A stretch of 64,000 nucleotides of DNA from the NCBI GenBank assembly GCA_964408285.1, contig CAYOYV010000007.1:1-64000 (forward strand), in the 5' to 3' direction. Positions 398 to 59,433 of this stretch are shown one piece after another. How positions within the stretch are numbered: position 1 is the stretch's first letter; every line of letters begins with the position of its first letter. A program made the translations under genes and the position numbers. The DNA is from an uncultured Nitrososphaerota archaeon. GTDB lineage: Archaea > Thermoproteota > EX4484-205 > JAAOZO01. Below the pieces are notes generated by a model that had not been told where the DNA came from, ran no database searches, and was given only the letters and a program-made list of their open reading frames with translations.

Positions 398-853
398 TCA
401 GCGAAATGATGACGCACGCATGCCCCTCATTCTCTTGAGCTGCATCTTTATCCCATTGACTGCGGACTTGGCTTTGTCAACTATGCTTCTGGCTTTCTCT
501 CGGGTATAGTAATCCATGGGGGTCACCCATCTGCCAGCGACCTTAATGGGGTAGCGCGCATATACGACCTCTCTCTGGATCTCTGTTCCATTTTCGATCA
601 GTTCCAGGAACTCTTTTTCACTGAGCAATTCCGGACTGACTCTTCTGAGGACCATGGCCAAACCACTGATTGCCCTGTGATCCTTCGCTTCATTCCCTCC
701 GAGCTCAAGGATCATCGCGTTGGCTGCGCTTTCGACTGCCATCGAAGCATGAAAGACAGCTGAGTCGAACTCTCCGGCGGCAAACCGTTTTTCTGCCCTG
801 CCTAGGTTAACCTCTGAAACCCTCAACAAGACTCCTACTTTGCTTTCAGCCAT
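398..853 (-). CDS. HEPN domain protein (putative toxin of an MNT-HEPN pair)
   Basis: A-F-H-A-x-x-A-V-E-type helix (AVFHASMAVE), a His loop and an ARYP motif. Overlaps the upstream nucleotidyltransferase gene. Confidence 0.85.
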   Translation of the reverse strand: MAESKVGVLLRVSEVNLGRAEKRFAAGEFDSAVFHASMAVESAANAMILELGGNEAKDHRAISGLAMVLRRVSPELLSEKEFLELIENGTEIQREVVYARYPIKVAGRWVTPMDYYTREKARSIVDKAKSAVNGIKMQLKRMRGMRASSFR

Positions 854-1467
854 ATCCTTGCTTCCTCCAAGTAATGATGGCCACGCTTGATCTCGTCGAC
901 CCTATTGCGCAGGGCCTCACCGAATCCATCCGTCTTTTCAACTAGGACTTCATATGCCTCAGCCATGCCATAGACGATGCCGCCTTCATGCGAACGAACA
1001 TTGTCCAGAAAATCCTCCCCGCTCAAGATCAAGGGCTCAATCGTCATGTGATAGCTAGCCTCCAGCTCCGAGATCTTGGACAGGACCATTTTCTTCGCCC
1101 TGTGGACCGGTTTGCTGACGACGATCATCATGTCGAGATCGCTATACTCATCCGCATTCCTTCGAGCCACGCTTCCGAAGAGGATGATCGCCCTGACGAA
1201 ACGCAGCTTTGCGAGCTCGTCCGCCATCCGTCTGGCTTGGGAAATCATAAACAGACTCAACTCGTAGGCAGAGATCACCAAATCTCCCCTTCGACCATAC
1301 CATTTCCCATTTTTCTCAACGACGGCCTGGCGCTGTAATTCCTCAAGCTTGATGGTCAACCACCTGTCGCTCAACCCAGACTCAAACCTCAACTCGCCAT
1401 AGGTATGTTTTCCGTGTTCTAGGGTTGAGAGGATTCTTCCCTCGGGGGTCAAGGAGACTAGGTCCAA
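835..1467 (-). CDS. Minimal nucleotidyltransferase (MNT) with N-terminal winged HTH
   Basis: LFGSVARR...SDLD polbeta-type motif. N-terminal HTH-like segment TYGELRFESGLSDRWLTIKLEEL. Confidence 0.85.
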   Translation of the reverse strand: MDLVSLTPEGRILSTLEHGKHTYGELRFESGLSDRWLTIKLEELQRQAVVEKNGKWYGRRGDLVISAYELSLFMISQARRMADELAKLRFVRAIILFGSVARRNADEYSDLDMMIVVSKPVHRAKKMVLSKISELEASYHMTIEPLILSGEDFLDNVRSHEGGIVYGMAEAYEVLVEKTDGFGEALRNRVDEIKRGHHYLEEARIWLKAK

Positions 1468-1685
1468 CTCTTGCCTGCAATGATTACCGGCGAATAAACC
1501 ATTTAAACTTTACTAAGTAAAGCAAACCAATCCCGCGGCCGAACTCCCAATCGATGCCTTCCCACTGTAAGATCAAAAGGAGAACTTCCATGATAGCCTT
1601 TCAAGCCTTCGCGCGGGGTCGGAGGCGGGGGATTGTGTCAAAATACTGTATGCGGCGACGTTATCCTAAGAGACGATTTGATTCA

Positions 1686-1754
1686 TCACCAATGCTCGAA
1701 GTGGATCAGTTGCTTCAGGGGCTTTCGATCCTTCGCGCGCGAGCATTTTACCAA
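1686..1754 (-). pseudogene. Chimeric remnant: RBS+TTG gene start fused at CGCGCGCG to a nitroreductase 3' end (MVKCSRAKDRKPLKQLIHFEHW*)
   Basis: 1686-1734 matches 3818-3866 at 43/49 nt. GGAGGT RBS at ~1762-1767. Confidence 0.8.
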
Positions 1755-1789
1755 TGGGCCTACCTCCTACTGAAAGACTAGCCTGAAAA

Positions 1790-2761
1790 CTAGTATCCAC
1801 GATCCAGATCAACCAGGTTCAAAGGTTTCAATCCTTTCGAAAGCAGCCTCGCGTTTTCTGCACAGATTTCCAATGCTCGTGTCCAAGATTCCGGACTCAG
1901 ACCAGCCGAGTGGCTCGTTGCTATCACATTCGGGAGGAGGTGTAGCTCGCTTCTCGACGGAAATCCCTCATTGGGAGGATAGACATACCAGACATCGATG
2001 CCTGCACCAGCTATCAATCCTTCAGTCAGGGCCTTGTGAAGTGCATCCTCGTTGACCAGTTTTCCTCTTCCGACATTGATGAGAAAGGCGGATCTCTTCA
2101 TAGCCCTGAGTTCATTCTCATTGATTATGTCCTCCGTCTCCTTGGTCAGCGGAAGCGCCAGAATCACGAAGTCTGACCCTCCTATGGCGTCAATGAGTCC
2201 ACTGGTTGGATAAAGACCGTCCAGCTCTGGAGAATCCGGAGGAATCTCTGATACGTCACGCTTCACGGCTATGACCTTCATTCCAAACCCCTTGGCTCTC
2301 CTCGCTATTTCCACTCCCACTTCTCCGTACCCAACTACGCACATGGTTTTGCCATAGAGTTCCGAGAATCCATCCCTGAACCACTTGCCTTGCTTCATCA
2401 TCGCATCTTGGACAGTGATCTTCCTCGACAGATCTATTGCAAGACCCATGGCCTGCTCTGCAACGGGAAAGGCATTGCACCCTGATGCGCTCGCCAGCAT
2501 TATGCCCCTTTTCTTTATTTGCTCCAGCGGAAGCCGATCCACTCCGGCCCAAGGAACCTGCCAGAGTCTCAACTTCCTAGCATTTTCAAGTGCAGCTGGT
2601 CTCAATCGCCCTCCTATGAACATGTCAGCAACCGAGATGGCAGACGCAATGGCTTCCGATTTCGGAGGATCGGGATGATAGAAACTGACCCCAGGTGCCA
2701 GACTCCTCAGGACTTCCAGCTCGCCTCGCATAAATGGGTAAACTAGTACCTCGAGTGCCAT
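1790..2761 (-). CDS. D-isomer-specific 2-hydroxyacid dehydrogenase family
   Basis: VGYGEVG Rossmann motif, INVGRG, GIDVW, TSHSAG. ATG 2761 chosen because a TTAAT box lies ~25 bp upstream (ORF open to 2827). Confidence 0.92.
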   Translation of the reverse strand: MALEVLVYPFMRGELEVLRSLAPGVSFYHPDPPKSEAIASAISVADMFIGGRLRPAALENARKLRLWQVPWAGVDRLPLEQIKKRGIMLASASGCNAFPVAEQAMGLAIDLSRKITVQDAMMKQGKWFRDGFSELYGKTMCVVGYGEVGVEIARRAKGFGMKVIAVKRDVSEIPPDSPELDGLYPTSGLIDAIGGSDFVILALPLTKETEDIINENELRAMKRSAFLINVGRGKLVNEDALHKALTEGLIAGAGIDVWYVYPPNEGFPSRSELHLLPNVIATSHSAGLSPESWTRALEICAENARLLSKGLKPLNLVDLDRGY

Positions 2762-2960
2762 CGGAGCCGTGCCATTGAGTCCAACATTATTAAGCTTCCT
2801 CCAGGATTTCGCTTTTGTTTTGGACAATCTCTTGGTAGTTCGGGGGAATCGTGTTAGTAATCATGCCATTTCTTTTCTTTTTGCTGGCCATATGATTGTT
2901 CCTTTGATTAAGGGCTCAAGAGTAGAAATCAAGTGAGGAGCGTTCGCGCGCCACTCTATC

Positions 2961-3359
2961 TCAGACCAGCAGACAAAATTCGTCAGCGATGTTGTCGAGA
3001 AGCCATTTCCGGTCATTCAGCAATTTCCTTCCAATGAGGGACCTCGTCGCTCTGAGTGCAGCGAATGGCTTCTCTTTGATATTAATCTCGGGTATGGTAA
3101 GGTAGATCAGATAGAGGTCCACTTTGACGTAGGTGCTGGTCGCTGTTGCGATGTGGATGTCTCCAACTTTCTCTGGACCTAGAGAATCTATGAGCTCTTG
3201 GTCAATTGCGATTGAGCCTGAGAAGCCAGTGTCGACCTGAATTGCCTTGGTTACGTCCTTGCCACCTTCATGGGCACGCATCGTGACTAGGATCGAGGGC
3301 GACGGAGGCACGTCTGAGGTGTGAGCCCAGCATTTCGTCCTAGAACCCGACCGTGACAA
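2961..3359 (-). CDS. Retroviral-like (clan AA) aspartyl protease-fold protein
   Basis: VDTGFSG catalytic motif and C-terminal LIGR motif. Confidence 0.75.
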   Translation of the reverse strand: MSRSGSRTKCWAHTSDVPPSPSILVTMRAHEGGKDVTKAIQVDTGFSGSIAIDQELIDSLGPEKVGDIHIATATSTYVKVDLYLIYLTIPEINIKEKPFAALRATRSLIGRKLLNDRKWLLDNIADEFCLLV

Positions 3360-3750
3360 GTTCCTTCGGCCTCCCGGCGCTCGTTATGTATATCTCCCCT
3401 GGCTTGTATCTCTTCAGCGCTCTCCTGAGGAGTTTCTGAATGTCGTTATCTTTGTCCATTATCCTGCCATTCACCAGTAGGATATATTCTCCCATATACT
3501 CGCCGAGCATTGACTGGACGTTCTCGCTGTTGACTTCGCCGGCAGCCGCCAGATCCAATCTGTAGATGACTCTTCGTGCTTCTTCTGGGTCTGGTGTCGA
3601 ATGAAGCCAACCTTTCTTCCCAAGTTCACTTAACAAGTTCTTCACGTAGCTCGATTTCAGACCGAGGGATTCCAGAGCCTCCTGAAAGTTGAAGGGCCTG
3701 CCCCGGAAGTGTCTCAATAGTCTCTCGTAAGCGAGCTCAAGGTGAGTCAT
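3340..3750 (-). CDS. Winged-helix domain fused to a DUF5678-like domain
   Basis: MarR-like N-terminus (YVKNLLSELGKKGWL...RRVIYRL). C-terminal EYMGEYILLVNGRI pattern. Overlaps the protease gene. Confidence 0.6.
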   Translation of the reverse strand: MTHLELAYERLLRHFRGRPFNFQEALESLGLKSSYVKNLLSELGKKGWLHSTPDPEEARRVIYRLDLAAAGEVNSENVQSMLGEYMGEYILLVNGRIMDKDNDIQKLLRRALKRYKPGEIYITSAGRPKELVTVGF

Positions 3751-3817
3751 GTTTAATATTAATAATGTGACTAATATAAGCATTGTTATTGCCTGTCGCG
3801 CGCACGAATCCGGTTTG

Positions 3818-4339
3818 TCACCAATGTTCGAAGTGGACCAATTCCTTCAGCGGTTTTCGATCCTTCACTGGGCCTTTCTTCTCTGCAGGGTAACCGAGTG
3901 GGGTCATCGCGACGATTCTGGAATTACGGGGGAGACGCAGGATCCTCTTGGCCTTGCGTTCGTCGAAAGCGCCAATCCAACACGTTCCCAAACCTTCAGA
4001 CCATGCCGCAAGGACTAGGGTCTGTACGGCGATCGAGCCATCTGCTTGCCAAAACTTCTCTCCATCCTTTCTGACCCAGGCTTTACTCGGGAAGACCCCG
4101 ACCGCAACGATGACCGGAGCGGAGACGAACCATTCCCTACCATAAGCCGCCCTGAGCCTCTCCCTGATTCTACGGTTTGTCACAACGACGAAAAACCAGG
4201 GTTGTCTATTGCCTGCTGAGGGTGAGAGCCTAGCCGCCTCAAGAACCCTCATGAGCTTCCGCTTCCCAATACGCCTTCGCTGATACTTCCTTATGCTACG
4301 CCTGGTCTTAATTGCCTCAAGAACCTCCATAGCCGCCAC
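3818..4339 (-). CDS. Nitroreductase family protein
   Basis: RRSIRKY, SPSAGNRQPW, GLGTCWIG, LGYP. Confidence 0.95.
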   Translation of the reverse strand: MAAMEVLEAIKTRRSIRKYQRRRIGKRKLMRVLEAARLSPSAGNRQPWFFVVVTNRRIRERLRAAYGREWFVSAPVIVAVGVFPSKAWVRKDGEKFWQADGSIAVQTLVLAAWSEGLGTCWIGAFDERKAKRILRLPRNSRIVAMTPLGYPAEKKGPVKDRKPLKELVHFEHW

Positions 4340-4523
4340 CCAAATCAGAATCCTTCACGAGTATTAAAAGCCGTTCTTCCAAGATCAGGGAGGCCTTCCG
4401 CCGGATAGAGAAGATACGCGCGCGAAGTGCCGTTCGATTATTCGTGACCCGGGGGTACAGGTGCCCCCCGGGGGGTATGGGCGCTCTGTGTGGATGCATT
4501 GGGCGATACGCAATGCGCGTGAA

Positions 4524-5003
4524 CTATGGGGACTTCTCGATCACTGTTCTTGTCGAGATCTCCAGTCTAGTCACTTTTCCTGCCTCGAGATCCACGTAGG
4601 CAGACGCCCAGCTTGTCCTGTCCTTCTGTAGCATGACGATTGCGCTCGTTGCCTTAATTGTGACACTGCCTTTTCCCTCAACTTTAGTGGTGAAGATTGG
4701 CCTCACTCCTACGATGCTGTAACCGTTATTGAGTAGATTCTGCACATCTGGGTCACTTTTCGCTATGTTGATTGCGGTCTCGTTGTACTCTCGGCTAACC
4801 TCAATGAATCCATATTGTCCCCTTCCATATGGCCATCCGCCCAGCCTCGGAAATGCAGGTGCTCCCCAGTTGAATCGTTGCTTGAGCCATCGATCAAAGC
4901 CATAGTTATCCGCATACACAGTCAACAATACCGTGCCGATAATCGCAACCAAAGCCAGGACCAATACGAGCCCTACGATGGTTCTCCTATCCAATCTTAT
5001 CAC
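4524..5003 (-). CDS. Membrane-anchored hypothetical protein (PepSY-like C-terminus)
   Basis: N-terminal hydrophobic helix; AINIAKSDPDVQ...YVDLEAGKV. Confidence 0.7.
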   Translation of the reverse strand: MIRLDRRTIVGLVLVLALVAIIGTVLLTVYADNYGFDRWLKQRFNWGAPAFPRLGGWPYGRGQYGFIEVSREYNETAINIAKSDPDVQNLLNNGYSIVGVRPIFTTKVEGKGSVTIKATSAIVMLQKDRTSWASAYVDLEAGKVTRLEISTRTVIEKSP

Positions 5004-5111
5004 CGGATTTTTGGTTGTGTTGTCAATTTCCGCCTCTTTCTTTTTAAGGATTGTTCAGAATTGTGCCCAAATCTTATCCCAGTAATCGCACAGTGCTCAA
5101 GGGAGCGAGTG

Positions 5112-5405
5112 CTATTCGCTCCTTCTGAATAGAGTGAGGAGCTTCTTCCTCCTGTAGATGTTGTATTCCTCAGCAGCAATTATCAAAAGTACGATGATCA
5201 GGATGACGCCGGCCAAGATTAGAATGAAGCCGGGGAAGTTAATGCCCACGCCGAACAACTCGACGAAGACATCAAGGTCTATCTTCACTAACGTATCTCC
5301 CGTCACGGTCACGACCCCTAACTCACTCCTGCAGAGTGAAATGAGCGCGATAACCAATAGCAAGGACAGGACCAGTTGAGGGCCAGCAATTGGGGGCCTC
5401 ATCAA
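5112..5405 (-). CDS. Small two-TM membrane protein
   Basis: Intact ORF with two hydrophobic segments. A homologous pseudogene lies at 59-348. Confidence 0.7.
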   Translation of the reverse strand: MMRPPIAGPQLVLSLLLVIALISLCRSELGVVTVTGDTLVKIDLDVFVELFGVGINFPGFILILAGVILIIVLLIIAAEEYNIYRRKKLLTLFRRSE

Positions 5406-5507
5406 TGTAAATGTGGGGCGTTATCGCTCTTAAGGATTCCGTTATCATGTATCCGCAGAATTACAGTGCCTTCTACTTTGCGCACGTGGTTTGTCAGATC
5501 CGAGTTC

Positions 5508-6350
5508 CTATCCCTTAAGGAGTTTTTCGAGATTTCTATGGTATATATTCTCGTATGCCTCTTGAGTCAGGTTCAAGCTGTCTATCAATTTTCTGTGGAC
5601 TTCAGCGGGAGCGAAGAAATCTTCCAGGTCTGTGCCGTACAGGAGCTTTCTGTTCAGCTCGCGCAAGAACAGCTTGGCGAACTCAATGTCCCTATTGAGC
5701 GCATTGTATCCGGAACCCGCTGAAAGATCCCCGTACAGATTGTCACAACTATCCAAGAGACGCACGGTCCTCCCGCGCCCGTTCACCGGGGTATTTGGAC
5801 GTGCCTCCGTGGGCAGATCAGCGGACATGCAGCTCCACCAGCCAGGTCCGTGCAGTATGAAATTCACGTTAGAATGCTCCCTCACAACTCTTTCCAGACC
5901 ATCAAGATTGGGCGAATCCATTGCACCATAGATCTCTTGGTCTCTGAACCCCAAGTGTATTAGTATCGGTATCTCAATCCTGCCACAGATTCTGTAGAGA
6001 TTGTGATTCAGCTCGTGGTCAATCGGCAACTTCGATGTGTGCTCTCCAAAGCCTCTGCAACCCATTTCCACGTATCGCTTGATTCTATCATCAAAACATT
6101 GCTCCCTCACGTCCACAGCGCAGAATGGTATCAGGCGATCCGGATAATTGCTTACTGCTTCTAGCACATACTCCGTTGGCATAACGACACTCGCGTTCCA
6201 GCTGGAGATAGCTAACACGACGGCCTTCTGAACACTGAGCGCGTTGAGATATAATATCAGGAAATCCAACGTGACCTGGCCCCAGGGATTGCCGGTATTC
6301 ATAACATCCCTGAAATTCCCGAGATGCGTGTGGCAATCAATAATCTCTGC
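5508..6350 (-). CDS. Amidohydrolase family (Amidohydro_2) protein; start uncertain
   Basis: IIDCHTH metal motif, GFGE, ILIH, ILHG, YGTD. A BRE/TATA-like AAAAGATTTTAAG at ~6402-6415 suggests the ORF extension to 6455 is not real. Confidence 0.88.
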   Translation of the reverse strand, partial: AEIIDCHTHLGNFRDVMNTGNPWGQVTLDFLILYLNALSVQKAVVLAISSWNASVVMPTEYVLEAVSNYPDRLIPFCAVDVREQCFDDRIKRYVEMGCRGFGEHTSKLPIDHELNHNLYRICGRIEIPILIHLGFRDQEIYGAMDSPNLDGLERVVREHSNVNFILHGPGWWSCMSADLPTEARPNTPVNGRGRTVRLLDSCDNLYGDLSAGSGYNALNRDIEFAKLFLRELNRKLLYGTDLEDFFAPAEVHRKLIDSLNLTQEAYENIYHRNLEKLLKG

Positions 6351-6519
6351 AACGGCTGGATGTCCTCGGTGCAAGCTTAGGTGCAGATCAAGCGGATTAT
6401 CCTTAAAATCTTTTTCTGAGACTTTTCGACGCGCGCGAGGCGAACTAGACCTCAATTATCAGAAATAAGTCCCAAAAGGGCTCCTGCACATAAGATGAGG
6501 ACACACGCGCGGATCTTTC

Positions 6520-7875
6520 TCATGACCGGGGTTTTGTCCATCTAGGTTCTTGTTCAACAGTGAGTTTCGAGATGACAGGTCTGAATTTTGCTTTGACACT
6601 CTGTCTGTTGCCGACTATGATTTCCATTTCAATATTGGAACCAAGAATCTCCAGACACTTGGATCTAAGGGCCTCAATCGAAACTTCCGGGTCACTTTCT
6701 TTTCTCATGAGCTCCAAGGTGAATCTGTTCGTGCTTTCTTGGACCAATTGGTATCTTGAGACTCCTCGCGTGCTTTGTATGGCGGTTATGATTCTCTTTG
6801 GGGAAATCGTGCGTCCGTCAGGCAGAGGGAGAAAGTCGACCTTTCTGCCCTCTATTGATTTCAGAAGTCGGAACCCCCTTCCGCAGGAGCATTGTGCGTC
6901 GCCAGATATTCCTATGTCACCGACTCGATATCTTATCAGCGGCATGGCATAGTTCAGCAGGCCTGTTACTACTATCTCACCTTCCTCACCTGGTCCAACG
7001 GATTCGCCATTCCGAATCAGTTCGACCACTACAAAATCCTCTCTTACATGAAGTCCCTCCTTTTTCCTGCATTCGTACGCTATGGTACCTGCCTCATAGG
7101 CTCCGTATGAGTCGTACACCTCGCATTGCAGAGAGGATTCCAAGAACCTTCGAGATGATTCGTCGAGCAATTCTCCCCAAGAGACCAAGGCCTTTGGGCG
7201 AATATTCTTGAGTCCTCTGTCTGTGACCGCCTCTGCAAGGAGCTTGAGATAGGAGGAATTGCCCCGAATGATCCCAGGTTGGTATTTGACTATCTCGGAA
7301 ATGATTTCTTCTGCGGTGTAAGCAAGGTAGACATTTCTTTGCCATCGCTTCAAAATGGATACCGATGGTCCGAGCGCAGTTCCCCCACGTGATTTGGATT
7401 TATTCACGCTTGGTTCCTCCTTTTCACCGGGTTGTGGTCTGTGATAAAAAATGTCAGTAACCCTATCCCAGGGATTGAGATCAAGGGCTCTTAGCTCTCT
7501 AAAGTACCATAGGGCAACCATGTAGTCCCAGAACGCCTTGTCGTAGAAAACGGGCATTGGTCCTCCTGTCGTGCCGGACGTTGACATCCTGACACAGTCA
7601 TCCAGATCATATCCCTTAGCAATGCTCTCTTGGGGCATTCCGCTGACAATTTCCTGCTTCGTAGTGAATGGCAGCTTTGACAGATCGTTGAGATCATTGA
7701 TATCGCTAGGTTTGATTGCCGCTGAGTCCAGTTTCTTTCTATAGAGCGGGACATTCTCGTAAGCATGTTTCAAAATCGCTCTGAGCCTCTTCTCCTGCAG
7801 CTTCCTGAGTTCAGTTGGTCTTAGCCACTCAGCCATTAAGAGTTCGTAGCAGTTCCAGATCACCCGGTAGAACAT
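6520..7875 (-). CDS. Phenylacetate-CoA ligase (PaaK/CapK)-like adenylate-forming enzyme
   Basis: STSGTTG P-loop, YGAYE, MPLIRYRVGD. Confidence 0.9.
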   Translation of the reverse strand: MFYRVIWNCYELLMAEWLRPTELRKLQEKRLRAILKHAYENVPLYRKKLDSAAIKPSDINDLNDLSKLPFTTKQEIVSGMPQESIAKGYDLDDCVRMSTSGTTGGPMPVFYDKAFWDYMVALWYFRELRALDLNPWDRVTDIFYHRPQPGEKEEPSVNKSKSRGGTALGPSVSILKRWQRNVYLAYTAEEIISEIVKYQPGIIRGNSSYLKLLAEAVTDRGLKNIRPKALVSWGELLDESSRRFLESSLQCEVYDSYGAYEAGTIAYECRKKEGLHVREDFVVVELIRNGESVGPGEEGEIVVTGLLNYAMPLIRYRVGDIGISGDAQCSCGRGFRLLKSIEGRKVDFLPLPDGRTISPKRIITAIQSTRGVSRYQLVQESTNRFTLELMRKESDPEVSIEALRSKCLEILGSNIEMEIIVGNRQSVKAKFRPVISKLTVEQEPRWTKPRS

Positions 7876-8041
7876 CTTGGGGCAGCCATCTTGCTGTCAT
7901 TACTTAATCCTTATTCTCGCGCGATGAAAAGGTCAAGCTAATACGTTTGATCGAAAAAACAGAGATGCCGAGCAACAATCAAGATTTTGCCACAATAGAC
8001 TTCTTCTCGCCAGAAATATTCAACACGCCCGACCCGGCGGC

Positions 8042-8524
8042 TTACTGAGAATTCCTCTTGCTCAGTGTGATACCCTTAGCCCATTCGGCAGCCCGCTCAA
8101 CCTCTCCCTGTTTCAGCGGCCCCTCGGTATCCCCTACAATGAAGCCCTCTGGCGGCTTCACAAGATAACCGCCTTTACCTATCAAACTGTTCGCGATGCG
8201 CCCGGCAGCATAGCCCATGAGTCCTACGATTATGCGTATACCAATGCCCCTATCTTTCGCTGAGAATCTTGTGTCGAATGAGGCAACGTCGATGTGTTTG
8301 AGCGAATCTGGGGGGATTTTTCTGAGGAATTCCTGAATAACCGGAGTCGGTCTCCCCCCATAAGTGGGCGAGCCCACGATCAGAAGGTCTGTTGTTCTCA
8401 ACTCAGAGGAATTCACTTCAGTCACGCGTAGTACCTTAACCTCACCGGCAAGAGCGTCGCCGATGGCTCTGGCAATTTTCTCGGTATTTCCATGGACAGA
8501 ATCATAAACGACCAGAGTTTTCAT
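8042..8524 (-). CDS. Flavodoxin family protein
   Basis: YDSVHGNTEKIA and GSPTYGG motifs. Confidence 0.93.
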   Translation of the reverse strand: MKTLVVYDSVHGNTEKIARAIGDALAGEVKVLRVTEVNSSELRTTDLLIVGSPTYGGRPTPVIQEFLRKIPPDSLKHIDVASFDTRFSAKDRGIGIRIIVGLMGYAAGRIANSLIGKGGYLVKPPEGFIVGDTEGPLKQGEVERAAEWAKGITLSKRNSQ

Positions 8525-8658
8525 CGCCTTCCTCCGATATTTTCTGATTTAAGCCTTATGATGGCGACATCAGGGGGATTCTCCAGAAGCCTTCCTATAT
8601 CTTCGTGTTGTCTTCGAACCTTATGCCTCTAGTCTTGTCGCAAACTGCTCGCATGCGT

Positions 8659-8703
8659 CGACGAAGAAGTTAAGAATGAAGATGGTCAAGCCAACGGTAT
8701 CCA
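8659..8703 (+). promoter_or_regulatory. Promoter/leader of the GNAT gene (copy A of a duplicated 45-bp element)
   Basis: Purine-rich BRE-like stretch plus GTTAAG upstream of ATG 8707. 36/45 identical, ungapped, to 10812-10856. Confidence 0.65.
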
Positions 8704-8706
8704 GAG

Positions 8707-9825
8707 ATGAACGAGATAATTAGGACTGTCAGGGCGGAAGAGTGGGATGAATTCTTGCGGTTCTTGGAGCTTTGCTACGGTCATTCGAGGGATTACTTTC
8801 CTCGTTATCTTACACAACTGTACAGGGCGGAGGACGAGGCCCTTTCTTCGTTCCTGGTGTTGGAAAAAGATAGGAGAATAGTTTCGCATGTGGGTCTTTT
8901 CCCCTTGGAGATTGTTTCCTTTGGAACTCATGTGACGGTCGGTGGCATAGGAGGCGTGGCCACACTACCAGAGGAAAGAGGCAAGGGTCACATGTCAAGG
9001 CTCTTGAACCACGCGGCTGAGATCATGAGGGAGAGGGGCTGGCCGCTATCTGTGCTTTGGGGAGACAGGCAACGGTACCATGCATTTGGCTGGGAAATCG
9101 CAGGCGTCAAATATTCGTTATACATGACTGTGCGCTCTTTTGATCGGGCCAAAGTAGAGGCAGCTAAAGTCAGAGAGACCTCACTCGAAGAGGCAACTCC
9201 CGTAGTCGGAAGGATCCAGTCTATCCTGCCGTTGAGAGTGAATCGAAAGCACACTGACCTCAACCTGAGGAAACAGGGCATTCGCATTTGGACGAGCGAC
9301 GAAGGCTATGTACTCTCTTCAGGCGAAGCAGGCTCACCCCGAATATTAGAGGTCGCTTCCCCCGAAAAAAAGGAGCCCGAACTCGTCAGGGGTGTTATGG
9401 AACGCTGTTACGGGGACTCCGCCTCACTGTACATTAACGCCTTCGACAGTGAAAGGTTGGGACGATTGCTCAGGGCGACATCTGAATGGACGCTTGTTCC
9501 AGAGGGACAATTCAGGATCATTGAACTCGCCGGTCTGCTTGAGTCATTTGAGCGATTGCTATCGGAGCGGGCGAAAATCGCACGCGACTTTGAAGTGTCC
9601 ATTGGGCTCAGACTCAGAGATAGGGTCGACATTGCCACCATCTCTGTGAAAGGGGGAGAATTTCGAATCTCGAGAGGCAGGAAGTCTGTAAATCACATCG
9701 AGTTGGACGAACGCGACGGTGTGCGATCTTTCTTAGGTGGCCCATCAGCTGACCTGCTGAGGTTGGGCGGCCTCACGACTATCTTACCCTTACCGATACA
9801 TGTCCCCTCCATTGACCACGTGTGA
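8707..9825 (+). CDS. Eis-like GNAT acetyltransferase
   Basis: GIGGVATLPEERGKGHM acetyl-CoA motif, Y..FGW, SCP2-like C-terminus. Confidence 0.85.
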   Translation: MNEIIRTVRAEEWDEFLRFLELCYGHSRDYFPRYLTQLYRAEDEALSSFLVLEKDRRIVSHVGLFPLEIVSFGTHVTVGGIGGVATLPEERGKGHMSRLLNHAAEIMRERGWPLSVLWGDRQRYHAFGWEIAGVKYSLYMTVRSFDRAKVEAAKVRETSLEEATPVVGRIQSILPLRVNRKHTDLNLRKQGIRIWTSDEGYVLSSGEAGSPRILEVASPEKKEPELVRGVMERCYGDSASLYINAFDSERLGRLLRATSEWTLVPEGQFRIIELAGLLESFERLLSERAKIARDFEVSIGLRLRDRVDIATISVKGGEFRISRGRKSVNHIELDERDGVRSFLGGPSADLLRLGGLTTILPLPIHVPSIDHV

Positions 9826-9914
9826 GCAGGACCTAGGAGTGATACCGAATGGCACGCGAGCCATAGACCCGACGCATTGGCTTTTTGTAGGATCGAACAC
9901 TGCGGGCGCGATCT

Positions 9915-10565
9915 CTATTCTTTGTATATTCCCTCTATGTCTCTCACGTAATTCCCTTCCGGTGTTTCCACGACGATGTAATAGAACGGCCTCGTGACTG
10001 GATTCTCCTGAAGGAAGGCTTTTGCTGAAGCGGCGTCGGGGCCTTTGTGGATTCGATAGAGCATCACTTGGCCCATTCTCACCGTTCTATCCTCCCTGAC
10101 GAAGAACACCTTGCCTGGCGTGGACACCTCGGCCTTGGGTGTCGGTGCAGTCCTTGCCTCTGGTTCTTTGTCATTCTTCCGCTTACCCCCATGCTTTCCG
10201 AAACTGTTCTTCGCATCCTTCCAAAGCTCGTGGGTTAGATCCTCTCCGGCCACTATTGCCTCATACTTCCCGTCATCCCTGCGGTAGTGTCCGAAAATCA
10301 GGGTCTCGGTGCAGATCAGCTTTCCCGTGTCCTGTGCAATTTGAATGCACTCCAACTCAAGCAGGGCCTCTCTTGCATCGCTTTCTCTGTCGAACACATA
10401 AAGTACGAACGGGTCGAATTTTTGATGCACACCCCTAGAAATCCAGTATGCCTCTACCTGTGAAATGGTCTCTTGCCTCATGCCCATGTTGTCCTTTTCG
10501 GTGTATTGTTTGGAGGGCGGCTTCTTCTCCTTTTTCCTACCGAATATTCTGTCTAAGACACCCAT
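9915..10565 (-). CDS. Hypothetical protein
   Basis: 216-aa ORF with a typical MG.LDRIFG start; no family recognised. Confidence 0.7.
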   Translation of the reverse strand: MGVLDRIFGRKKEKKPPSKQYTEKDNMGMRQETISQVEAYWISRGVHQKFDPFVLYVFDRESDAREALLELECIQIAQDTGKLICTETLIFGHYRRDDGKYEAIVAGEDLTHELWKDAKNSFGKHGGKRKNDKEPEARTAPTPKAEVSTPGKVFFVREDRTVRMGQVMLYRIHKGPDAASAKAFLQENPVTRPFYYIVVETPEGNYVRDIEGIYKE

Positions 10566-10811
10566 TCTGAGGCCCTATGCCTCACGTGATTGTCCGAGGC
10601 GATAAATGCATTTTCTCTCGCGCCCGTCGTCTGCGGGTGTGTATTTCGTTTGTCAGACTGGATGCTACTAGTGTTGTGCATAATGCGCGAATTGCGATGT
10701 ATGCTATCGCCAACGATGAGGAGCGTGTCCTCATGTGCTAATCCGGAGATGCCACCTGAGACTATGTGCGCGCGCACTAAGGGTCCATGAGGATTTTTGC
10801 TGTCCCGTCGC

Positions 10812-10856
10812 CGACGAAGGAGTTAAGAATAGACACGGTTGAGCCAACGTCATCCA
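10812..10856 (+). promoter_or_regulatory. Copy B of the duplicated promoter element, upstream of the PfkB kinase
   Basis: 36/45 identity to 8659-8703, followed by ACGCGTGCGCGTG. Confidence 0.65.
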
Positions 10857-10889
10857 ACGACGCGTGCGCGTGAGAAGTCGACTAGGGAG

Positions 10890-11852
10890 ATGACTCGAAA
10901 AAAGACTGGTCTGGATGTGATGGTCATAGGAGATGCAATGATGGACATCATCGTCAAGTATGACACAGAATTCATGAAAAGCGGGGCAGTCTTCTATGAT
11001 GGAGCTGTCTCCTACGGTGGTGCGGGTAACGTGGCAGTAGACGCCTCAACCTTGGGCTTGAAAACAAGCATGGTCGCAAAAGTCGGCAGAGATCCACTGG
11101 GCCGTCTTTTCATGGACGACCTTCTAAAGCACAATGTAGTCCCGCAACTAGCTTTCGATGACGTCTCATACACCGGGTTCCTAGTGTCGCTTCTTCATCA
11201 GGACAGTGAAAGGTCCTTCCTAGTATGTAGAGGTGCAAACGACAAACTTTCTCCGAAAGATATTGACAAAGCGTTTGAAGGAGCTAGGCCGAGAATAGTC
11301 TTCATACAGGGTTACGGTATTGCGTCACCTCAAAGGAGAGCTCTTCTCTATGCAGCAAGAAAGGCGAGAGATTTCTGCGCTACAGTGATCTATGATCCTG
11401 CATCATACAACATAGTACAGGCTCATAGGAATTTCGTGATTGATAATCTGATGAGATATGTAGATATATGTCTACCGAACCTTGAGGAGGCCAAAGCCCT
11501 TACTGGACGCAGTGATCTAGAGAGCATGGGAAGGACACTTGCCGGGCTTGTTCCCCTAGCCATTGTCAAACTCGGTGCCGATGGAGCTGCGATCGTTCCG
11601 AGAGGCGAGGAAATCTCCTACTATAAGCCTCAACGAGTCAAGCCCACGAACACCACCGGAGCAGGAGATGCCTTTGCATCAGCCATAATCTATGGTCTTT
11701 CAAAGGGATTTTCGCATGATTTGACGATGAAGATCGCCAACTGGGTCGCGGCAAAAAAAATACAATCGCTAGATTCTAGGCTAACAATTGAGAGAAGGCA
11801 ATTCACAAAATTCAGGGTTGGACTTCAACGAGATCAACGTACTAGGCGCTGA
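10890..11852 (+). CDS. PfkB/ribokinase family carbohydrate kinase
   Basis: GGAGNVA, PNLEEA, NTTGAGDAF. ATG 10890 preceded by AGGGAG. Confidence 0.93.
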   Translation: MTRKKTGLDVMVIGDAMMDIIVKYDTEFMKSGAVFYDGAVSYGGAGNVAVDASTLGLKTSMVAKVGRDPLGRLFMDDLLKHNVVPQLAFDDVSYTGFLVSLLHQDSERSFLVCRGANDKLSPKDIDKAFEGARPRIVFIQGYGIASPQRRALLYAARKARDFCATVIYDPASYNIVQAHRNFVIDNLMRYVDICLPNLEEAKALTGRSDLESMGRTLAGLVPLAIVKLGADGAAIVPRGEEISYYKPQRVKPTNTTGAGDAFASAIIYGLSKGFSHDLTMKIANWVAAKKIQSLDSRLTIERRQFTKFRVGLQRDQRTRR

Positions 11853-11934
11853 TTATCGCGCGGGCGCCGGTCTCCAACAGGATTGAGGAATCTTCCAACC
11901 TGACATCCCGCGCAATCTGCGCCTTTGCCGGCAA

Positions 11935-12855: not shown

Positions 12856-12951
12856 AGCTGTGAAAAGATACTTTCTGCCTTCTTAAGAATTTAGATCGTG
12901 CGCGATTCATGTCCGCCGTTTTCTGTTTTTCCTCTAATCGATGAAATGGGA

Positions 12952-14997: not shown

Positions 14998-15103
14998 CTC
15001 ATACGAATTATTTCGCGAACTTAAAAGCACTGGCACGTGGGCCCGGCGTAAATCAACACACCGGCTAGGGGCACACAATCGATCAGGGAAACTGCTTTAA
15101 GGA

Positions 15104-16060: not shown

Positions 16061-16112
16061 AAGGGCAACCTAGGCCCCGGTATGGCCGCAACGCGCGTGT
16101 TGTCCGTAACCC

Positions 16113-16982: not shown

Positions 16983-17190
16983 GCGTCAATTGCAGGATAA
17001 TGCGCGCATCTTGCGCAACCGAGCAGAGATACCGAGACTCTAGAGGAGACATTGTATTACTCGTGACAGATCCGACCAGACAGAATTCGTCTGCTCAATG
17101 ATCAATCCCAACTGGGTCAACTTCATAGTAAGGCTTCCTCGGCGAAACACATATTTTGCGACAAAAACGCAATATCTGAAGCCGAATATA

Positions 17191-17883: not shown

Positions 17884-17905
17884 CTGAATAACGCGCGCGT
17901 TCAGC

Positions 17906-20227: not shown

Positions 20228-20277
20228 GAAACCACCCTGCCCGACCCTCTCTTATCTGTTTGTCCTGTCATACATGA

Positions 20278-48634: not shown

Positions 48635-48641
48635 GCTGTCG

Positions 48642-55429: not shown

Positions 55430-55487
55430 GAACTAGACACCCCCTCTTCCCATTAAGAAAGAGAACAAGTTAATCTTCTTTCCCGAT

Positions 55488-56702: not shown

Positions 56703-56727
56703 TTGCCACCATAATCGTAGGTTCTCA

Positions 56728-57522: not shown

Positions 57523-57651
57523 GTAGAAACAGGGTTCAATACATTAAAAAAACATTGGGTCCATGTGAGTGGAACCCAACCGCACAAGATGTGCCCCGGT
57601 TCATTGGCCGGAGCCATTCTGTCGGCTATTGTGATCTCTCCTTTGAAACTG

Positions 57652-57774
57652 TCATTTGAAGAAAGTCGTGGCCCTGTACTTGAATGAAACGCCATTTATG
57701 TCCGCCCTCATGTCCTTCGCCATCTCCTCCCAGTCTATTGTCTTTTTTAGTTCCGCCTTTTTCCATATTGCCAT
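57652..57774 (-). CDS. Unannotated 40-aa small protein
   Basis: MAIWKKAELKKTIDWEEMAKDMRADINGVSFKYRATTFFK*. AGGTGA RBS 6 nt upstream and an ATTAAAT box further upstream. Confidence 0.55.
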   Translation of the reverse strand: MAIWKKAELKKTIDWEEMAKDMRADINGVSFKYRATTFFK

Positions 57775-57931
57775 TCCACATCACCTAATGAACTCCTTTC
57801 CTCTGATTGTATTTAATGGCAGCTCACGAAGGAAGCTCACGATATGTGAGCACAACAGATATTCATCCGGGCATGTGACAGAATCGCCGTCCAACACAAC
57901 AAATAAATCGAGTCCAGACCTACATTTCTAG

Positions 57932-59080
57932 ATGGAGCCATTCGACATAGGACACTACGTTCACCTGATCGAGGAAAGCGAGCGAAGGATATCGGCAGCC
58001 GAGGATTTCAAGGAGGCTGACAGAATTCCTGTAACCATGGGACTTGGAGGGCCATACTATGCTTGGCTCTTTGGGCGCACCTTGGCACAGTACTACAATG
58101 ACCTCGGAACCATGTTGGACAGCCAGATAAAGGGCATCAAATGGAGGCTCTCCTCCTTGGGCGATGACGTGGCTGGGGTTGGAGCATGGTTCGATGTTGG
58201 ATCGATCTCCGAGGGGCTAGTCTTTGAATGCCAGATCAGAATGCCAGACGAGACAAATCCTTGGATGAGCCCGTGGATAATCCCGCGCGTCAAGACACTA
58301 GAGGATATTGACCGATTGGAAATCCCCGACCCAAGTTCGAACAAGCAGGTGAGGAACCACTACGCGAGGTTGCAGAGGTTCAGGGAATTGGTCAAAGAAA
58401 ATTATAGGGACATCCCCGCGTCAGGAGGACTTCAGATTCATCCGCCGATTTCGGCCGCTGGATCGCTACTCGGACCCGAGAAGCTTTACTCTTGGATCTA
58501 CAGATATCCCAATGAGATGCACAAGCTATTCAGAAAGCTGGTCCACGCTTTCAAGGTCATGAGGAATTTCGATTGTGAAATGACCGGTGCAGAGCATGAT
58601 TCACTGCATCTGTCTGATGATCATGCAGGATATCTCGACAGGGAGCAGTATCAGAGGTTCGCACTGCCGTACAATCTAGAACTCTATCAACTTTATGGCT
58701 CAAGGCAACGAGGCCTCCACATGGATTCCCACATGGATCACATAACTGATATTGTAAGGGACGTCTACAAGGTGAAGTATGCAGATGTCGGCGTGGAAAA
58801 TGATATCAGAACAATAGCCCTGGCATTCAAGGGGAAAATCGTCTTCAATGGCAATGCCAACTGGAGGGTCTTGGTGAACGGTTCTCCAGAATCGATAGAG
58901 AAGGAGGTGGAGAAGTGCGTTTTCCATTCGGCGCGTGGAGGGGGATACATTTTCGACAATGGCGGGGAGACCTACATCGGAGTATCTCCAGAGAAACTGA
59001 AGTATGAGGTAAGCTACGCAAAGAAAGTGGGTCAGTATCCCATCAAGCTTGATCGTTTTAGACACATACCGAAACAATGA
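57932..59080 (+). CDS. Uroporphyrinogen decarboxylase / MtaA-like family protein
   Basis: PISAAGSLLG, SDD, LH.D, GN, GGGYIF pattern. Confidence 0.85.
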   Translation: MEPFDIGHYVHLIEESERRISAAEDFKEADRIPVTMGLGGPYYAWLFGRTLAQYYNDLGTMLDSQIKGIKWRLSSLGDDVAGVGAWFDVGSISEGLVFECQIRMPDETNPWMSPWIIPRVKTLEDIDRLEIPDPSSNKQVRNHYARLQRFRELVKENYRDIPASGGLQIHPPISAAGSLLGPEKLYSWIYRYPNEMHKLFRKLVHAFKVMRNFDCEMTGAEHDSLHLSDDHAGYLDREQYQRFALPYNLELYQLYGSRQRGLHMDSHMDHITDIVRDVYKVKYADVGVENDIRTIALAFKGKIVFNGNANWRVLVNGSPESIEKEVEKCVFHSARGGGYIFDNGGETYIGVSPEKLKYEVSYAKKVGQYPIKLDRFRHIPKQ

Positions 59081-59433
59081 AGAAGAACCCCGCTGTGATG
59101 CCGAATAGCCGTATACACTGAGCTGTTCAGCAAGAGATTGGCTGTATTCCCTTGAGGGATTCCATTGTTCCACATCCTGAGCGTTGTCATTTGATGCGTG
59201 TCCATTAGGTGACGAGAAGAGGGCGATTAGGAGCCACCTATGCGATTCTTGGGACCTACATGTCGATCGGCAGCTTCCTCCCCTGCTTTCAAAACACGAG
59301 AAATGGATGAAATTGACGACTATCCTGAGAGAATCCCGCGCACAACTGCGTCCGCACTGCACTAGAATAGTATGTACATAAAGCATTTGACAAAGCGATA
59401 TTAGGGGACAATCAGCAGCACAATAGAGACTGA

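What the first reader, a model, noticed from the sequence alone, without database searches (positions are those of the whole stretch)
400..59380. Candidate gene-accretion system: genes and gene fragments stitched together at short (CG)n junction tracts
Seen: by eye, 13 of 13 CGCGCG hexamers in the first 21 kb lie in intergenic DNA or a gene's last codons, although that is a small fraction of the sequence (1610, 1734, 2945, 3797, 4417, 6430, 6506, 7918, 10769, 11857, 16092, 17892, 20286). Many other boundaries carry related alternating tracts (412, 4514, 5479, 8650, 10860, 12897, 16977, 17000, 23456, 24261, 28404-28426, 30720, 35075-35250, 37381, 39017, 40626, 49688, 59337). Tracts coincide with breakpoints of truncated homolog copies, and neighbouring genes are functionally unrelated. 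No integrase, transposase or attC site was seen. Inference: DNA pieces are joined at CG-repeat sites by a trans-acting mechanism, such as a site-specific recombinase, cut-and-ligate at CGCG (the archaeal enzyme ThaI cuts CG^CG), or microhomology/Z-DNA-promoted joining. This is conceptually akin to cyanobacterial HIP1 or integron arrays but matches neither.
Basis: partly seen in the sequence, partly recalled or inferred. Interest (0 to 1): 0.9.

Follow-up and report, generated by a model that had tools for sequence, protein, structure and literature searches.

The report
CG-repeat scars at DNA joints
Short runs of alternating C and G sit where unrelated genes and gene fragments meet in this archaeal genome, and comparison with relatives indicates they arise when broken DNA is rejoined, a kind of rearrangement scar I could not find described.

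Summary
All 13 listed CGCGCG sites exist: 11 are intergenic, one lies 8 nt before a stop, and one lies 18 nt inside a doubtful start (P=1.4e-9). Genome-wide, intergenic CGCGCG is 4-5x and (CG)4 is 23x a Markov expectation, while coding DNA is at expectation. Tracts cluster in islands at contig ends; window 1-21 kb is one, and the rest of the claimed span is ordinary.

Tract-bounded pieces are intact unrelated genes, one of them bacterial-like, plus gene fragments. A metagenome haplotype replaces window 56-2659 with (CG)7C.

Two 86-95% identical species of a sister genus were compared. There, 26 of 76 homology breakpoints lie within 10 nt of a tract, against 1.5% of gene ends. In six events a bare tract replaces 64-5295 nt, once inside an intact hydrolase gene.

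Best reading (0.6): tracts are filler laid down de novo during error-prone end joining, kept only in dispensable DNA and later reused as microhomology. A recombinase, CGCG restriction-ligation and methylation are not supported.

A PriS-like primase paralogue tracks tract richness within the class. It is neither necessary nor sufficient elsewhere, so it is only a weak lead.

The parts
1..22014 (.). Patchwork island at the contig start: 1-3-gene modules in both orientations, separated by (CG)n tracts
   Evidence: 12 of 21 spacers carry a tract, against 3 of 34 in the rest of the window. Among the 162 10-kb bins of the genome, this region ranks among the richest in intergenic tracts. Pfam finds unrelated accessory enzymes and a HEPN/NTase pair.
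1610..1615 (.). (CG)3 tract, intergenic
   Evidence: Shares CCTTCGCGCG with the tract at 1734. An X1 haplotype joins 1606 to 1731.
1686..1733 (-). 48-nt gene fragment between two tracts: a copy of the last 16 codons of nitroreductase gene 3818-4339
   Evidence: tblastx, 87.5% identity over 16 aa to C7:3818-3865
1734..1741 (.). (CG)4 tract, intergenic, 49 nt beyond the stop of 1790-2827(-)
56..2659 (.). Segment replaced by 15 letters, (CG)7C, in a haplotype of run X1. The reference has no tract at 55 or 2660, and 2660 lies inside the dehydrogenase gene 1790-2827.
   Evidence: tables 5 and 5c (depth 7.8; shorter side 30 letters; one contig)
2945..2951 (.). CGCGCGC tract, 10 nt beyond the stop of 2961-3359(-)
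3797..3803 (.). CGCGCGC tract inside a 34-nt spacer between 3340-3783(-) and 3818-4339(-)
4417..4424 (.). (CG)4 tract, intergenic
6430..6437 (.). (CG)4 tract, 18 nt inside the predicted TTG start of 5508-6455(-); probably upstream of the true start
   Evidence: the Pfam domain starts at residue 39
6506..6511 (.). (CG)3 tract, 8 nt beyond the stop of 6520-7875(-)
7918..7923 (.). (CG)3 tract, intergenic
10768..10775 (.). GCGCGCGC tract in a divergent spacer (within GTGCGCGCGCAC)
11857..11862 (.). (CG)3 tract, 4 nt beyond the stop of 10839-11852(+)
16092..16097 (.). (CG)3 tract in a convergent 52-nt spacer
   Evidence: conserved in L110
17002..17007 (.). GCGCGC tract in a divergent spacer
   Evidence: conserved in L110
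17892..17899 (.). (CG)4 tract filling most of a 22-nt convergent spacer
   Evidence: conserved in L110
17906..20227 (-). 773-aa glycoside-hydrolase-like gene bounded by tracts 17892 and 20286; the named relatives are bacterial
   Evidence: Every source name among the best 120 hits (52-66% identity) is bacterial: Hydrogenedentes, Planctomycetes, Armatimonadota, FCB group, 'bacterium'. The nearest Atlas clusters are 100% Bacteria.
20286..20294 (.). CGCGCGCGC tract in the last codons of 20278-22014(-), 8 nt from its stop

Best explanation
The (CG)n tracts are junction scars. In this archaeon (its relatives' records are titled Brockarchaeota/Thermoproteota MAGs) and in some other lineages of the phylum, a short self-complementary alternating C/G filler is laid down at the joint when DNA ends are rejoined. 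This happens after a deletion, a replacement, or the capture of foreign or paralogous DNA. Such scars are lethal or costly in essential DNA. They therefore survive only between genes, in the last codons of genes, and in dispensable, fast-turning-over islands. Window 1-21 kb is such an island: a patchwork of intact acquired genes and gene fragments.

Once present, tracts are identical short palindromes and act as microhomology for further deletions, swaps and insertions next to them. That produces cassette-like arrays.

SHOWN:
- the enrichment and clustering of tracts;
- gene fragments and a bacterial-like gene bounded by tracts;
- a population haplotype with a (CG)7C filler;
- in a close species pair of a sister genus, breakpoints on tracts and bare tracts replacing 64-5295 nt that carry no tract in the other genome.

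INFERRED:
- that the filler is synthesised during microhomology-type end joining, for example by self-complementary GC/CG tailing or reiterative annealing and extension of 3' ends;
- that the enzyme could be a primase-family polymerase. The PriS-like paralogue at G000:C10:22571-23545 is a weak lead, which I put at about 0.15-0.2.
For: G000:
- Intergenic CGCGCG is 4-5x and (CG)4 is 23.5x the order-1 expectation; coding DNA is at expectation.
- There is no flank consensus beyond A/T at +-1 and no extended palindrome.
- Density is similar in tandem, convergent and divergent spacers, with no fixed distance to starts or stops.
- Variance/mean of intergenic tracts per 10-kb bin is about 3. Seven of 162 bins, all at contig ends, hold 49 of 140 binned intergenic tracts, and there nearly every gene boundary has one.
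- One-transition variants of (CG)4 are 5.2x, against 2.9x for transversions, as expected for decaying scars.
- Tract-adjacent non-coding pieces contain gene fragments.
- Run X1 has a haplotype 55->2660 with (CG)7C between, and a haplotype 1606->1731.
- Gene 17906-20227 has only bacterial named relatives.

Sister genus g6, motif A(GC)nT:
- AGCGCGCGCT occurs 70-118 times in G008, G012 and G014, against 1-2 for its reverse.
- G012 (397,551 nt) was compared with G014 (186,076 nt). Of 76 internal HSP end points, 26 lie within 10 nt of a tract on the G012 side and 15 on the G014 side. The baselines are 0.76% and 1.34% of bases, and 11 of 744 gene ends.
- Of 24 adjacent collinear HSP pairs, 14 have a perfect tract at the break, 5 a degenerate one and 5 none.
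- In six events a bare tract replaces a longer segment: 615 nt inside an intact 312-aa Hydrolase_4 gene, and 844, 5295, 3511, 457 and 64 nt.
- A 72-nt inter-tract piece holds 48 nt of a surface-protein paralogue.
- Truncated radA and AEP fragments abut tracts.

Independent lineages:
- The Bathyarchaeia MAG G031 has intergenic CGCGCG at 17x and coding at 0.4x.
- In G232, 8-9 of 10 inspected octamer sites lie at gene boundaries.

Background: the abstract of PMC12019639 says archaeal PriSL carries out microhomology-mediated end joining, with terminal transfer and primer extension.
Against: - No junction was watched forming. For 5 of the 6 filler events, polarity (deletion or insertion) is not fixed by an outgroup; the flanks of the 5295-nt event occur only in G012 and G014.
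- G000 itself has one filler haplotype, from one Logan contig with 30 letters on its shorter side, laid at 90% likeness. It may belong to a related strain.
- Some events fit recombination between existing tracts rather than new filler: tract-177 nt-tract against a single tract, and three shared tracts with different DNA on one side.
- Five of 24 breaks carry no tract at all, and two of these are plain direct-repeat deletions. The filler is therefore not obligatory.
- No enzyme is established. Ku and reverse transcriptase were not found in 31 genomes.
- The PriS-like AEP is present in G032 and G033, which are not tract-rich. It is missing, at E<=0.01 apart from canonical PriS-like hits, from tract-rich G232, G220, G154, G147 and G062.
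- All gene calls are my own crude ORF calls.
Confidence: 0.6

Rival explanations
1. Cassette mobility: (CG)n is the recognised end or attachment site of gene cassettes. A trans-acting recombinase or transposase excises and inserts tract-bounded segments, and single tracts are empty sites or excision footprints (integron-like, or Tc1/IS630-like TA-footprint-TA in genus g6).
For: - The islands form cassette-like arrays.
- G014 has tract-177 nt-tract where G012 has one tract, and three tracts are shared with different DNA on one side.
- An X1 haplotype lacks exactly the DNA between tracts 1610 and 1734.
- The g6 consensus TA(GC)nTA resembles a TA-target footprint; that comparison is from memory.
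Against: - Bare tracts stand where the sister genome has neither a tract nor an element: six events, one inside an intact gene.
- Module ends are trimmed at different offsets in the two genomes.
- Tract length varies from 6 to 15 nt. There is no flank consensus and no attC-like palindrome in G000.
- Modules point both ways.
- Phage_integrase was not found in G000 or G008, and DDE_3 was not found in any of 5 genomes.
- No recombinase or transposase appeared among the 30 window ORFs scanned.
- Serine recombinases and other transposase families were not searched.
Confidence: 0.15
2. Functional cis-element: (CG)n is selected at gene boundaries as a protein-binding site, transcription insulator/terminator or Z-DNA supercoil sink. 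Breakpoints fall on it only because it is the one sequence that boundaries share.
For: - The tracts are short palindromes, the usual form of a dimer-binding site.
- There is an excess within 15 nt of stop codons.
- Tracts are conserved between 95.6% identical strains.
- Each lineage has its own fixed register and flanks: A(GC)nT is 118:1 over its reverse in G008.
Against: - There is no fixed distance to starts or stops, and density is equal in convergent, divergent and tandem spacers.
- 90% of spacers lack a tract, and tracts pile up in dispensable islands.
- Tracts arise inside a gene that they destroy.
- They are absent from orthologous boundaries in a 92-95% identical species.
- Within one genus, genomes have either hundreds or none.
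- Only 1.5% of gene ends lie near a tract, against 34% of breakpoints.
Confidence: 0.1
3. Plain mutational bias: replication slippage or biased repair grows CG microsatellites wherever selection allows, with no link to DNA joining.
For: - Enrichment rises with tract length: 4.7x for (CG)3 and 23.5x for (CG)4.
- There is register and length variation between orthologous tracts (junction 2).
- The pattern is purely intergenic.
Against: - Breakpoint coincidence to within 0-2 nt, and bare tracts replacing up to 5.3 kb.
- Other dinucleotide repeats are hardly enriched: CACACA 1.16x and TATATA 2.4x.
- No C5 methyltransferase is present that could drive a very-short-patch-type bias.
Confidence: 0.05
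4. Artefact of metagenome assembly or binning: chimeric joins at low-complexity GC tracts.
For: The islands sit at contig ends, and the assembly has odd exact 55-mers 155 nt apart.
Against: - Tracts of 6-15 nt are far shorter than the assembly k-mers; the contig-end overlaps are 55 nt.
- The same junctions are spanned by contigs of four other runs and by an independent metagenome contig.
- The pattern recurs in independently assembled genomes of several lineages.
Confidence: 0.02

Closest known systems
Filler DNA / templated insertions at end-joining junctions (Pol theta-mediated or microhomology-mediated end joining; archaeal PriSL-mediated MMEJ)
   Same: Extra nucleotides at deletion and rearrangement junctions, tiny microhomologies and captured DNA fragments. 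The abstract of PMC12019639 reports that archaeal PriSL does MMEJ with terminal transfer. The listing of PMC11292364 says Pol theta extends stem-loops from two terminal base pairs.
   Different: Known fillers are copied from nearby sequence or are random. Here the filler is always the same alternating C/G repeat, with a register and flanks fixed per lineage, and it is frequent enough to become one of the most over-represented words of the genome.
Integron gene-cassette arrays (IntI + attC)
   Same: Arrays of unrelated, often promoterless accessory genes and toxin-antitoxin pairs, separated by a recurring element.
   Different: There is no IntI-type tyrosine recombinase in G000 and no attC-like imperfect palindrome. 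Genes point both ways, some spacers are as short as 22-34 nt, and the element arises de novo at deletions. The attC features are recalled from memory, not taken from a call.
Highly iterated palindromes such as cyanobacterial HIP1 (GCGATCGC)
   Same: A short GC-rich palindrome that is hugely over-represented and lineage-specific.
   Different: HIP1 is abundant inside genes (recalled from memory). Here coding DNA is at or below expectation, and the word marks rearrangement breakpoints.
Interstitial telomeric repeats inserted at double-strand-break repair sites in vertebrate genomes (recalled from memory, no call)
   Same: A constant simple repeat inserted at the joint when a break is repaired, left behind as a scar.
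   Different: Those repeats are telomerase-made. Here no reverse transcriptase was found in 31 genomes, and the repeat is a self-complementary dinucleotide.
DRT3 defence reverse transcriptases that make alternating poly(GT/AC) DNA without a nucleic-acid template
   Same: A precedent that a polymerase can write an alternating dinucleotide repeat (search listings of PMC13314766 and PMC13174585).
   Different: A bacterial anti-phage system based on reverse transcriptase, making a different repeat that is not known to be integrated into the genome. RVT_1 was not found here.

Membership tests
Integron (IntI/attC cassette array) | IntI-type tyrosine recombinase next to the array | tested here: not met
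   PF00589 has no match in G000, which is 93.7% complete. None appeared among the 30 window ORFs scanned with Pfam.
Integron (IntI/attC cassette array) | attC: a 55-140 nt imperfect inverted repeat after each cassette, with cassettes co-oriented | tested here: not met
   There is no flank conservation and no palindrome extension around tracts. Some spacers are 22-34 nt. Orientations are mixed.
Restriction-site cut-and-ligate (CGCG / GCGCGC enzymes) | Joints only at pre-existing sites of fixed length, with a cognate methyltransferase present | tested here: not met
   Tracts are 6-15 nt and arise where the sister genome has no site. No C5 methyltransferase was found in G000, G008, G012 or G014. 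N4/N6 methylases and restriction endonucleases were not searched.
REP/RAYT or MITE-type repeated element | Conserved element of 20 nt or more, with hairpin and conserved flanks, in many copies | tested here: not met
   Flanks are random beyond +-1. The 84 inter-tract pieces of 25-220 nt do not form families. No Rfam or tRNA hit in the window.
Highly iterated palindrome (HIP1-like) | Over-representation in coding as well as non-coding DNA | tested here: not met
   Coding CGCGCG is 0.97x the order-1 expectation and 0.44x iid.
End-joining scar with filler (MMEJ/alt-EJ type) | Extra nucleotides exactly at deletion or rearrangement junctions, absent from the unrearranged allele | tested here: met
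   Six bare-tract events between G012 and G014, and the X1 haplotype 55->2660 with (CG)7C.
End-joining scar with filler (MMEJ/alt-EJ type) | A polymerase or ligase shown to make the filler | not testable with these tools
   Only correlation is available for a PriS-like AEP, and it has counter-examples. Ku was not found in any of 31 genomes.
AEP / PriS-like primase family (for G000:C10:22571-23545) | DxD, sGxGxH and hD catalytic motifs, and similarity to PriS | tested here: met
   D100/D102, S150-G151..G154-F155-H156, D208 and a HEH..C..C knuckle are invariant in 7 sequences. The PDB PriS hits have E 3e-10. Pfam DNA_primase_S scores 28 bits for G014 but only 15.7 bits for G000, below the cut-off. 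The fold model was too poor to use, with pLDDT 52.5.

The most novel reading that the evidence does not exclude
Some Thermoproteota possess a dedicated DNA-end 'stitching' activity. It writes a self-complementary alternating C/G tail on any free DNA end, which makes all ends mutually cohesive. Breaks are thus healed without homology, and foreign or stray DNA fragments are captured into growing patchwork islands. This would be a recombinase-free route of gene gain and loss that signs every event with a (CG)n mark. The small PriS-like primase paralogue, encoded right behind radA in the sister genus, would be one such writer, and other lineages would use a different enzyme.
Probability: 0.3. Interest if true: 0.95.

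Novelty: categorically new. Interest (0 to 1): 0.82.

Why it matters
If the reading is right, every (CG)n tract is a time-stamped record of a DNA break or capture event. That would make gene gain, gene loss and inter-domain transfer in uncultured archaea directly countable from sequence. It would also reveal an end-joining chemistry with constant, self-complementary filler that has no described counterpart. It would explain why one short word dominates the intergenic DNA of certain lineages.

It offers a testable enzymology: which polymerase writes alternating C/G on DNA ends. An enzyme that makes any two DNA ends cohesive could also be of practical use.

Seven literature searches found no description of the phenomenon. 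The library does not cover most subscription journals.

Tried and rejected
- **Promoter or terminator role.** Distances from tracts to starts and stops are broad, and all three spacer types are equally dense.
- **Extended motif or attC-like palindrome.** None found.
- **Rfam families and tRNAs in the window.** None.
- **Synteny with relatives of G000.** G000 is alone in its genus. Window 1-20000 gave only scattered single-gene matches at 65-72% identity, so breakpoints could not be tested for G000 itself.
- **Metagenome scan with the 17098-17883 protein.** One near-identical contig (L110), collinear; the other 18 loci were 50-62% relatives.
- **Multi-copy 406-aa gene of the g6 islands, suspected to be a transposase.** It is a secreted, membrane-anchored coiled-coil protein with no Pfam family and no G000 homolog.
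- **Enzyme families searched.**
  - Ku: 0 of 31 genomes.
  - RVT_1: 0 of 31.
  - C5 methyltransferase: 5 of 31, none of them tract-rich.
  - DDE_3: 0 of 5.
  - Phage_integrase: 2 of 5, namely G012 and G014, but not G000 or G008.
- **Loss of RadA as a cause.** G000 has radA, and G012 has an intact radA-AEP pair.
- **Polarising the 5295-nt event.** Its flanks occur only in G012 and G014.
- **Structure of the AEP.** The model has mean pLDDT 52.5, so no fold search was made.
- **The search for homologous proteins with the G000 AEP alone.** It found only itself.
- **Atlas search for the 578-aa ORF 20278-22014.** Best score 0.76, uninformative.
- **L081 (G012:C6:1-20000).** No match in G014. This is reported as tried only.
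- **Sampling caveats.**
  - Nine of the 20 G007 stretches were chosen because they held CGCGCGCG matches, which biases that sample upward. It still showed only 1.3x.
  - The S12-normalised index was computed for 42 of the 301 genomes. These were the whole class plus genomes with high raw counts, which I picked by eye. '8 AEP-negative enriched genomes' is therefore a lower bound.
  - In one search, 52 HSPs of at least 80% identity and 60 nt were reduced to 45 by dropping those more than half covered by a better one. End points within 30 nt of a locus end were left out, reducing 90 to 76.
- **Tools and files.** Supplementary files of papers were not consulted.

Full report
**What is in the window**

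The window is G000:C7:1-64000 of a 1.82-Mb, 46-contig genome with 49% G+C and AGA/AGG arginine codons. Records of related genomes are titled Candidatus Brockarchaeota or Thermoproteota MAGs.

I used my own ORF-based gene calls. By these, 11 are intergenic. One (20286) is 8 nt before a stop. One (6430) is 18 nt inside a doubtful TTG start. With 10.7% intergenic DNA, P = 1.4e-9.

The effect is local. A tract is present in 12 of 21 spacers in 1-22.1 kb and in 3 of 34 spacers in the rest of the window. Beyond 21 kb, 12 of 14 tracts are coding.

**Genome-wide statistics**

- CGCGCG is the 4th most intergenic-enriched of 2080 hexamers, behind only TATA-like words.
- Intergenic CGCGCG is about 200 observed against 40-50 expected under iid, order-1 and order-2 models. 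Coding DNA is at the order-1 expectation.
- (CG)4 is 57 observed against 2.4 expected.
- Other alternating hexamers are not enriched.
- Flanks are random apart from A/T at +-1, and there is no longer palindrome.
- Tandem, convergent and divergent spacers are equally dense, with no preferred distance to starts. There is only a moderate excess near stops.
- Tracts are strongly clustered. Seven of 162 10-kb bins, all at contig ends, hold 49 of 140 binned intergenic tracts. There almost every gene boundary carries one.

**What the tracts separate**

Pfam finds intact, unrelated accessory enzymes and a HEPN/nucleotidyltransferase pair. No recombinase or transposase appears among the 30 window ORFs scanned; 27 or so were not scanned.

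Gene 17906-20227 is bounded by tracts on both sides. It has only bacterial names among its best 120 relatives, at 52-66% identity.

Non-coding pieces next to tracts contain gene fragments. Piece 1616-1733 holds 16 codons of the 3' end of the nitroreductase gene at 3818-4339. Other contigs hold pieces of a homolog of 17098-17883 and of larger genes.

Tract-flanked genes have slightly lower codon adaptation (P = 2e-4) and the same G+C as other genes.

**Population evidence for G000**

Logan contigs of four runs cover the region and span most junctions (table 8).

- One contig of run X1 joins 55 to 2660 with (CG)7C in between, although the reference has no tract at either place.
- Another X1 contig joins 1606 to 1731, removing the DNA between two tracts that share CCTTCGCGCG.

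Caveats apply: single contigs, 30 letters on the shorter side, and a 90% likeness threshold. An independent metagenome contig, 95.6% identical, is collinear and keeps three tracts.

**Relatives**

G000 is alone in its genus, and window 1-20000 has no synteny with relatives. In sampled DNA the intergenic enrichment is about 1.3x in G002 and G007 and about 10x in G012. G012 belongs to genus g6.

In G012 the word is A(GC)nT. AGCGCGCGCT is the commonest 10-mer of a 400-kb sample.

Across the class, this 10-mer occurs as follows:
- 118, 88, 70, 33, 32, 18 and 16 times in seven g6 genomes of 2.0-2.3 Mb, and 6 times in the 70%-complete G025;
- 0-3 times in the other nine g6 genomes;
- its reverse occurs 0-3 times in every g6 genome.

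**The decisive comparison**

G014 is 86-95% identical to G012 but mosaic in the islands. I compared 397,551 nt of G012 with 186,076 nt of G014.

- Of 76 internal alignment end points, 26 lie within 10 nt of a tract on the G012 side and 15 on the G014 side.
- The baselines are 0.76% and 1.34% of bases, and 11 of 744 gene ends.
- Of 24 adjacent collinear alignment pairs, 14 have a perfect tract at the break, 5 have a one-transition variant, and 5 have none. Two of those five are plain direct-repeat deletions.

In six events one genome has only a tract between two flanks, while the other has a longer segment with no perfect tract at either border. In the 3511-nt case, G012 has a degenerate tract at one border.

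- GCGCGC replaces 615 nt inside an intact 312-aa alpha/beta-hydrolase gene.
- CGCGCGCG replaces 844 nt.
- GCGCGCGC replaces 5295 nt.
- CGCGCG replaces 3511 nt.
- CGCGTGC replaces 457 nt.
- GCGCGCG replaces 64 nt.

Other events look like reuse of existing tracts. One is tract-177 nt-tract against a single tract. Three are shared tracts with different DNA on one side.

Inter-tract pieces are heterogeneous. One holds 48 nt of a surface-protein paralogue. Truncated radA and primase fragments abut tracts.

**Interpretation**

The tracts arise at the moment DNA is joined and survive only where the joint is tolerated. This accounts for:
- the intergenic and last-codon positions;
- the island clustering;
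- the gene fragments;
- the variable tract length;
- the decaying variants;
- the patchy occurrence among close relatives.

A self-complementary alternating tail would make any two ends cohesive. That step is inferred, not shown.

A site-specific recombinase, restriction cut-and-ligate and a methylation-driven bias are not supported. Because the same marks accompany deletions and gene destruction, 'accretion system' is too strong.

**A candidate enzyme, and its limits**

The 5295-nt segment encodes a 268-aa PriS-like AEP directly behind radA. Its homologs occur in G000 and in 7 of the 8 tract-rich g6 genomes. In G000 it lies at C10:22571-23545 and is separate from the canonical PriS at C8. It occurs in none of the 9 tract-poor g6 genomes and in none of the other f1 genomes.

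The catalytic motifs are invariant. The closest solved structures are archaeal PriS, with E 3e-10. The family has 104 clusters, annotated as hypothetical or 'primase catalytic subunit'.

A Bathyarchaeia MAG with a 44% identical homolog (G031) shows 17x intergenic enrichment.

Against this:
- G032 and G033 carry the radA-AEP pair without enrichment.
- At least eight genomes of four other families are tract-enriched 3.7-13.6x by an S12-normalised index, yet show only canonical PriS-like hits where I searched at a relaxed threshold (5 of the 8).
- In one of them, G232, the tracts again sit at gene boundaries.
- The genomes are related to one another, so counts overstate independence.

I therefore rate this enzyme as a lead only, at about 0.15-0.2.

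Archaeal PriSL is reported to do microhomology-mediated end joining with terminal transfer (abstract of PMC12019639; search listing of PMC3333859). Enzymes that write alternating dinucleotide DNA exist in bacteria, namely DRT3 (search listings).

**Novelty**

Seven full-text searches found no description of CG-repeat marks at rearrangement joints or of intergenic CG-tract enrichment in archaea. Most subscription journals are not covered by that library.

The closest analogues are filler DNA at end-joining junctions and, from memory, interstitial telomeric repeats left at repaired breaks. Neither has a constant self-complementary dinucleotide filler, and neither shapes a prokaryotic genome's word usage.

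**Verdict**

The best explanation, end-joining scars, has confidence 0.6. Interest is 0.82.

Noticed in passing
G000 contigs C2:108778/108933, C9:8637/8792, C9:54792/54947, C9:59669/59824, C10:1658/1813, C11:59528/59683, C12:16531/16686, C13:11462/11617: Exact 55-nt repeats, always 155 nt apart, inside contigs. There are also 55-nt overlaps between contig ends. These look like k=55 assembly artefacts.
   Followed up: no
window 61005-63521 (-): An 838-aa ORF with Ig-like and CarboxypepD_reg domains. Its codon usage is so atypical that my codon-score gene caller rejected it.
   Followed up: partly
L165 4060-5794; L166 3927-5598; L167 2850-4539; L168 2825-4514; L169 39-1029; L147 8911-10642; L176; L177: In genus g6 and two further MAGs, a 260-280-aa PriS-like primase paralogue is encoded immediately behind radA and overlaps it by about 20 nt. 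This is a conserved radA-AEP gene pair.
   Followed up: partly
L090 18265-18857 (G012:C12): A GCGCGCGC tract abuts a 48-codon radA fragment that starts at the Walker A motif. The fragment is fused to the last 155 or so codons of the AEP gene, making a scrambled second copy of the radA-AEP pair.
   Followed up: partly
G000, G008, G010 whole genomes: No Phage_integrase (PF00589) match at all in these 93-94% complete genomes, although all 14 control genomes have one. A XerA-type recombinase may be missing or very divergent.
   Followed up: no
L072 14078-15120; L131 3039-4259; L141 2564-3784 and other g6 loci: A multi-copy family of about 406 aa: signal peptide, coiled coil and C-terminal membrane anchor, with no Pfam family. 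It often lies at contig ends in tract-rich g6 genomes, and fragments of it occur between tracts.
   Followed up: partly
L081 (G012:C6:1-20000): A whole 20-kb stretch of G012 has no match (E<=1e-10) in the 92%-complete sister genome G014.
   Followed up: no
window 59-304 and 5112-5405; window 3818-4339 and 29487-29966: Paralogue pairs inside the window. The two small ORFs with their upstream DNA are 75% identical over about 340 nt. There are also two nitroreductase genes.
   Followed up: no
window 1 and 4015 (runs X2, X3): Contigs in two other runs join position 4015 back to position 1 through 30 other letters. This is a different arrangement at the contig start that does not involve a tract.
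   Followed up: no
G232, G220, G208 (family f32); G154, G268 (f35); G147, G042 (f15); G062 (f5): Other families of the phylum also show 3.7-13.6x excess of (CG)4/(GC)4 by a composition-normalised index. In G232 the tracts are 9-13 nt long and sit at gene boundaries.
   Followed up: partly
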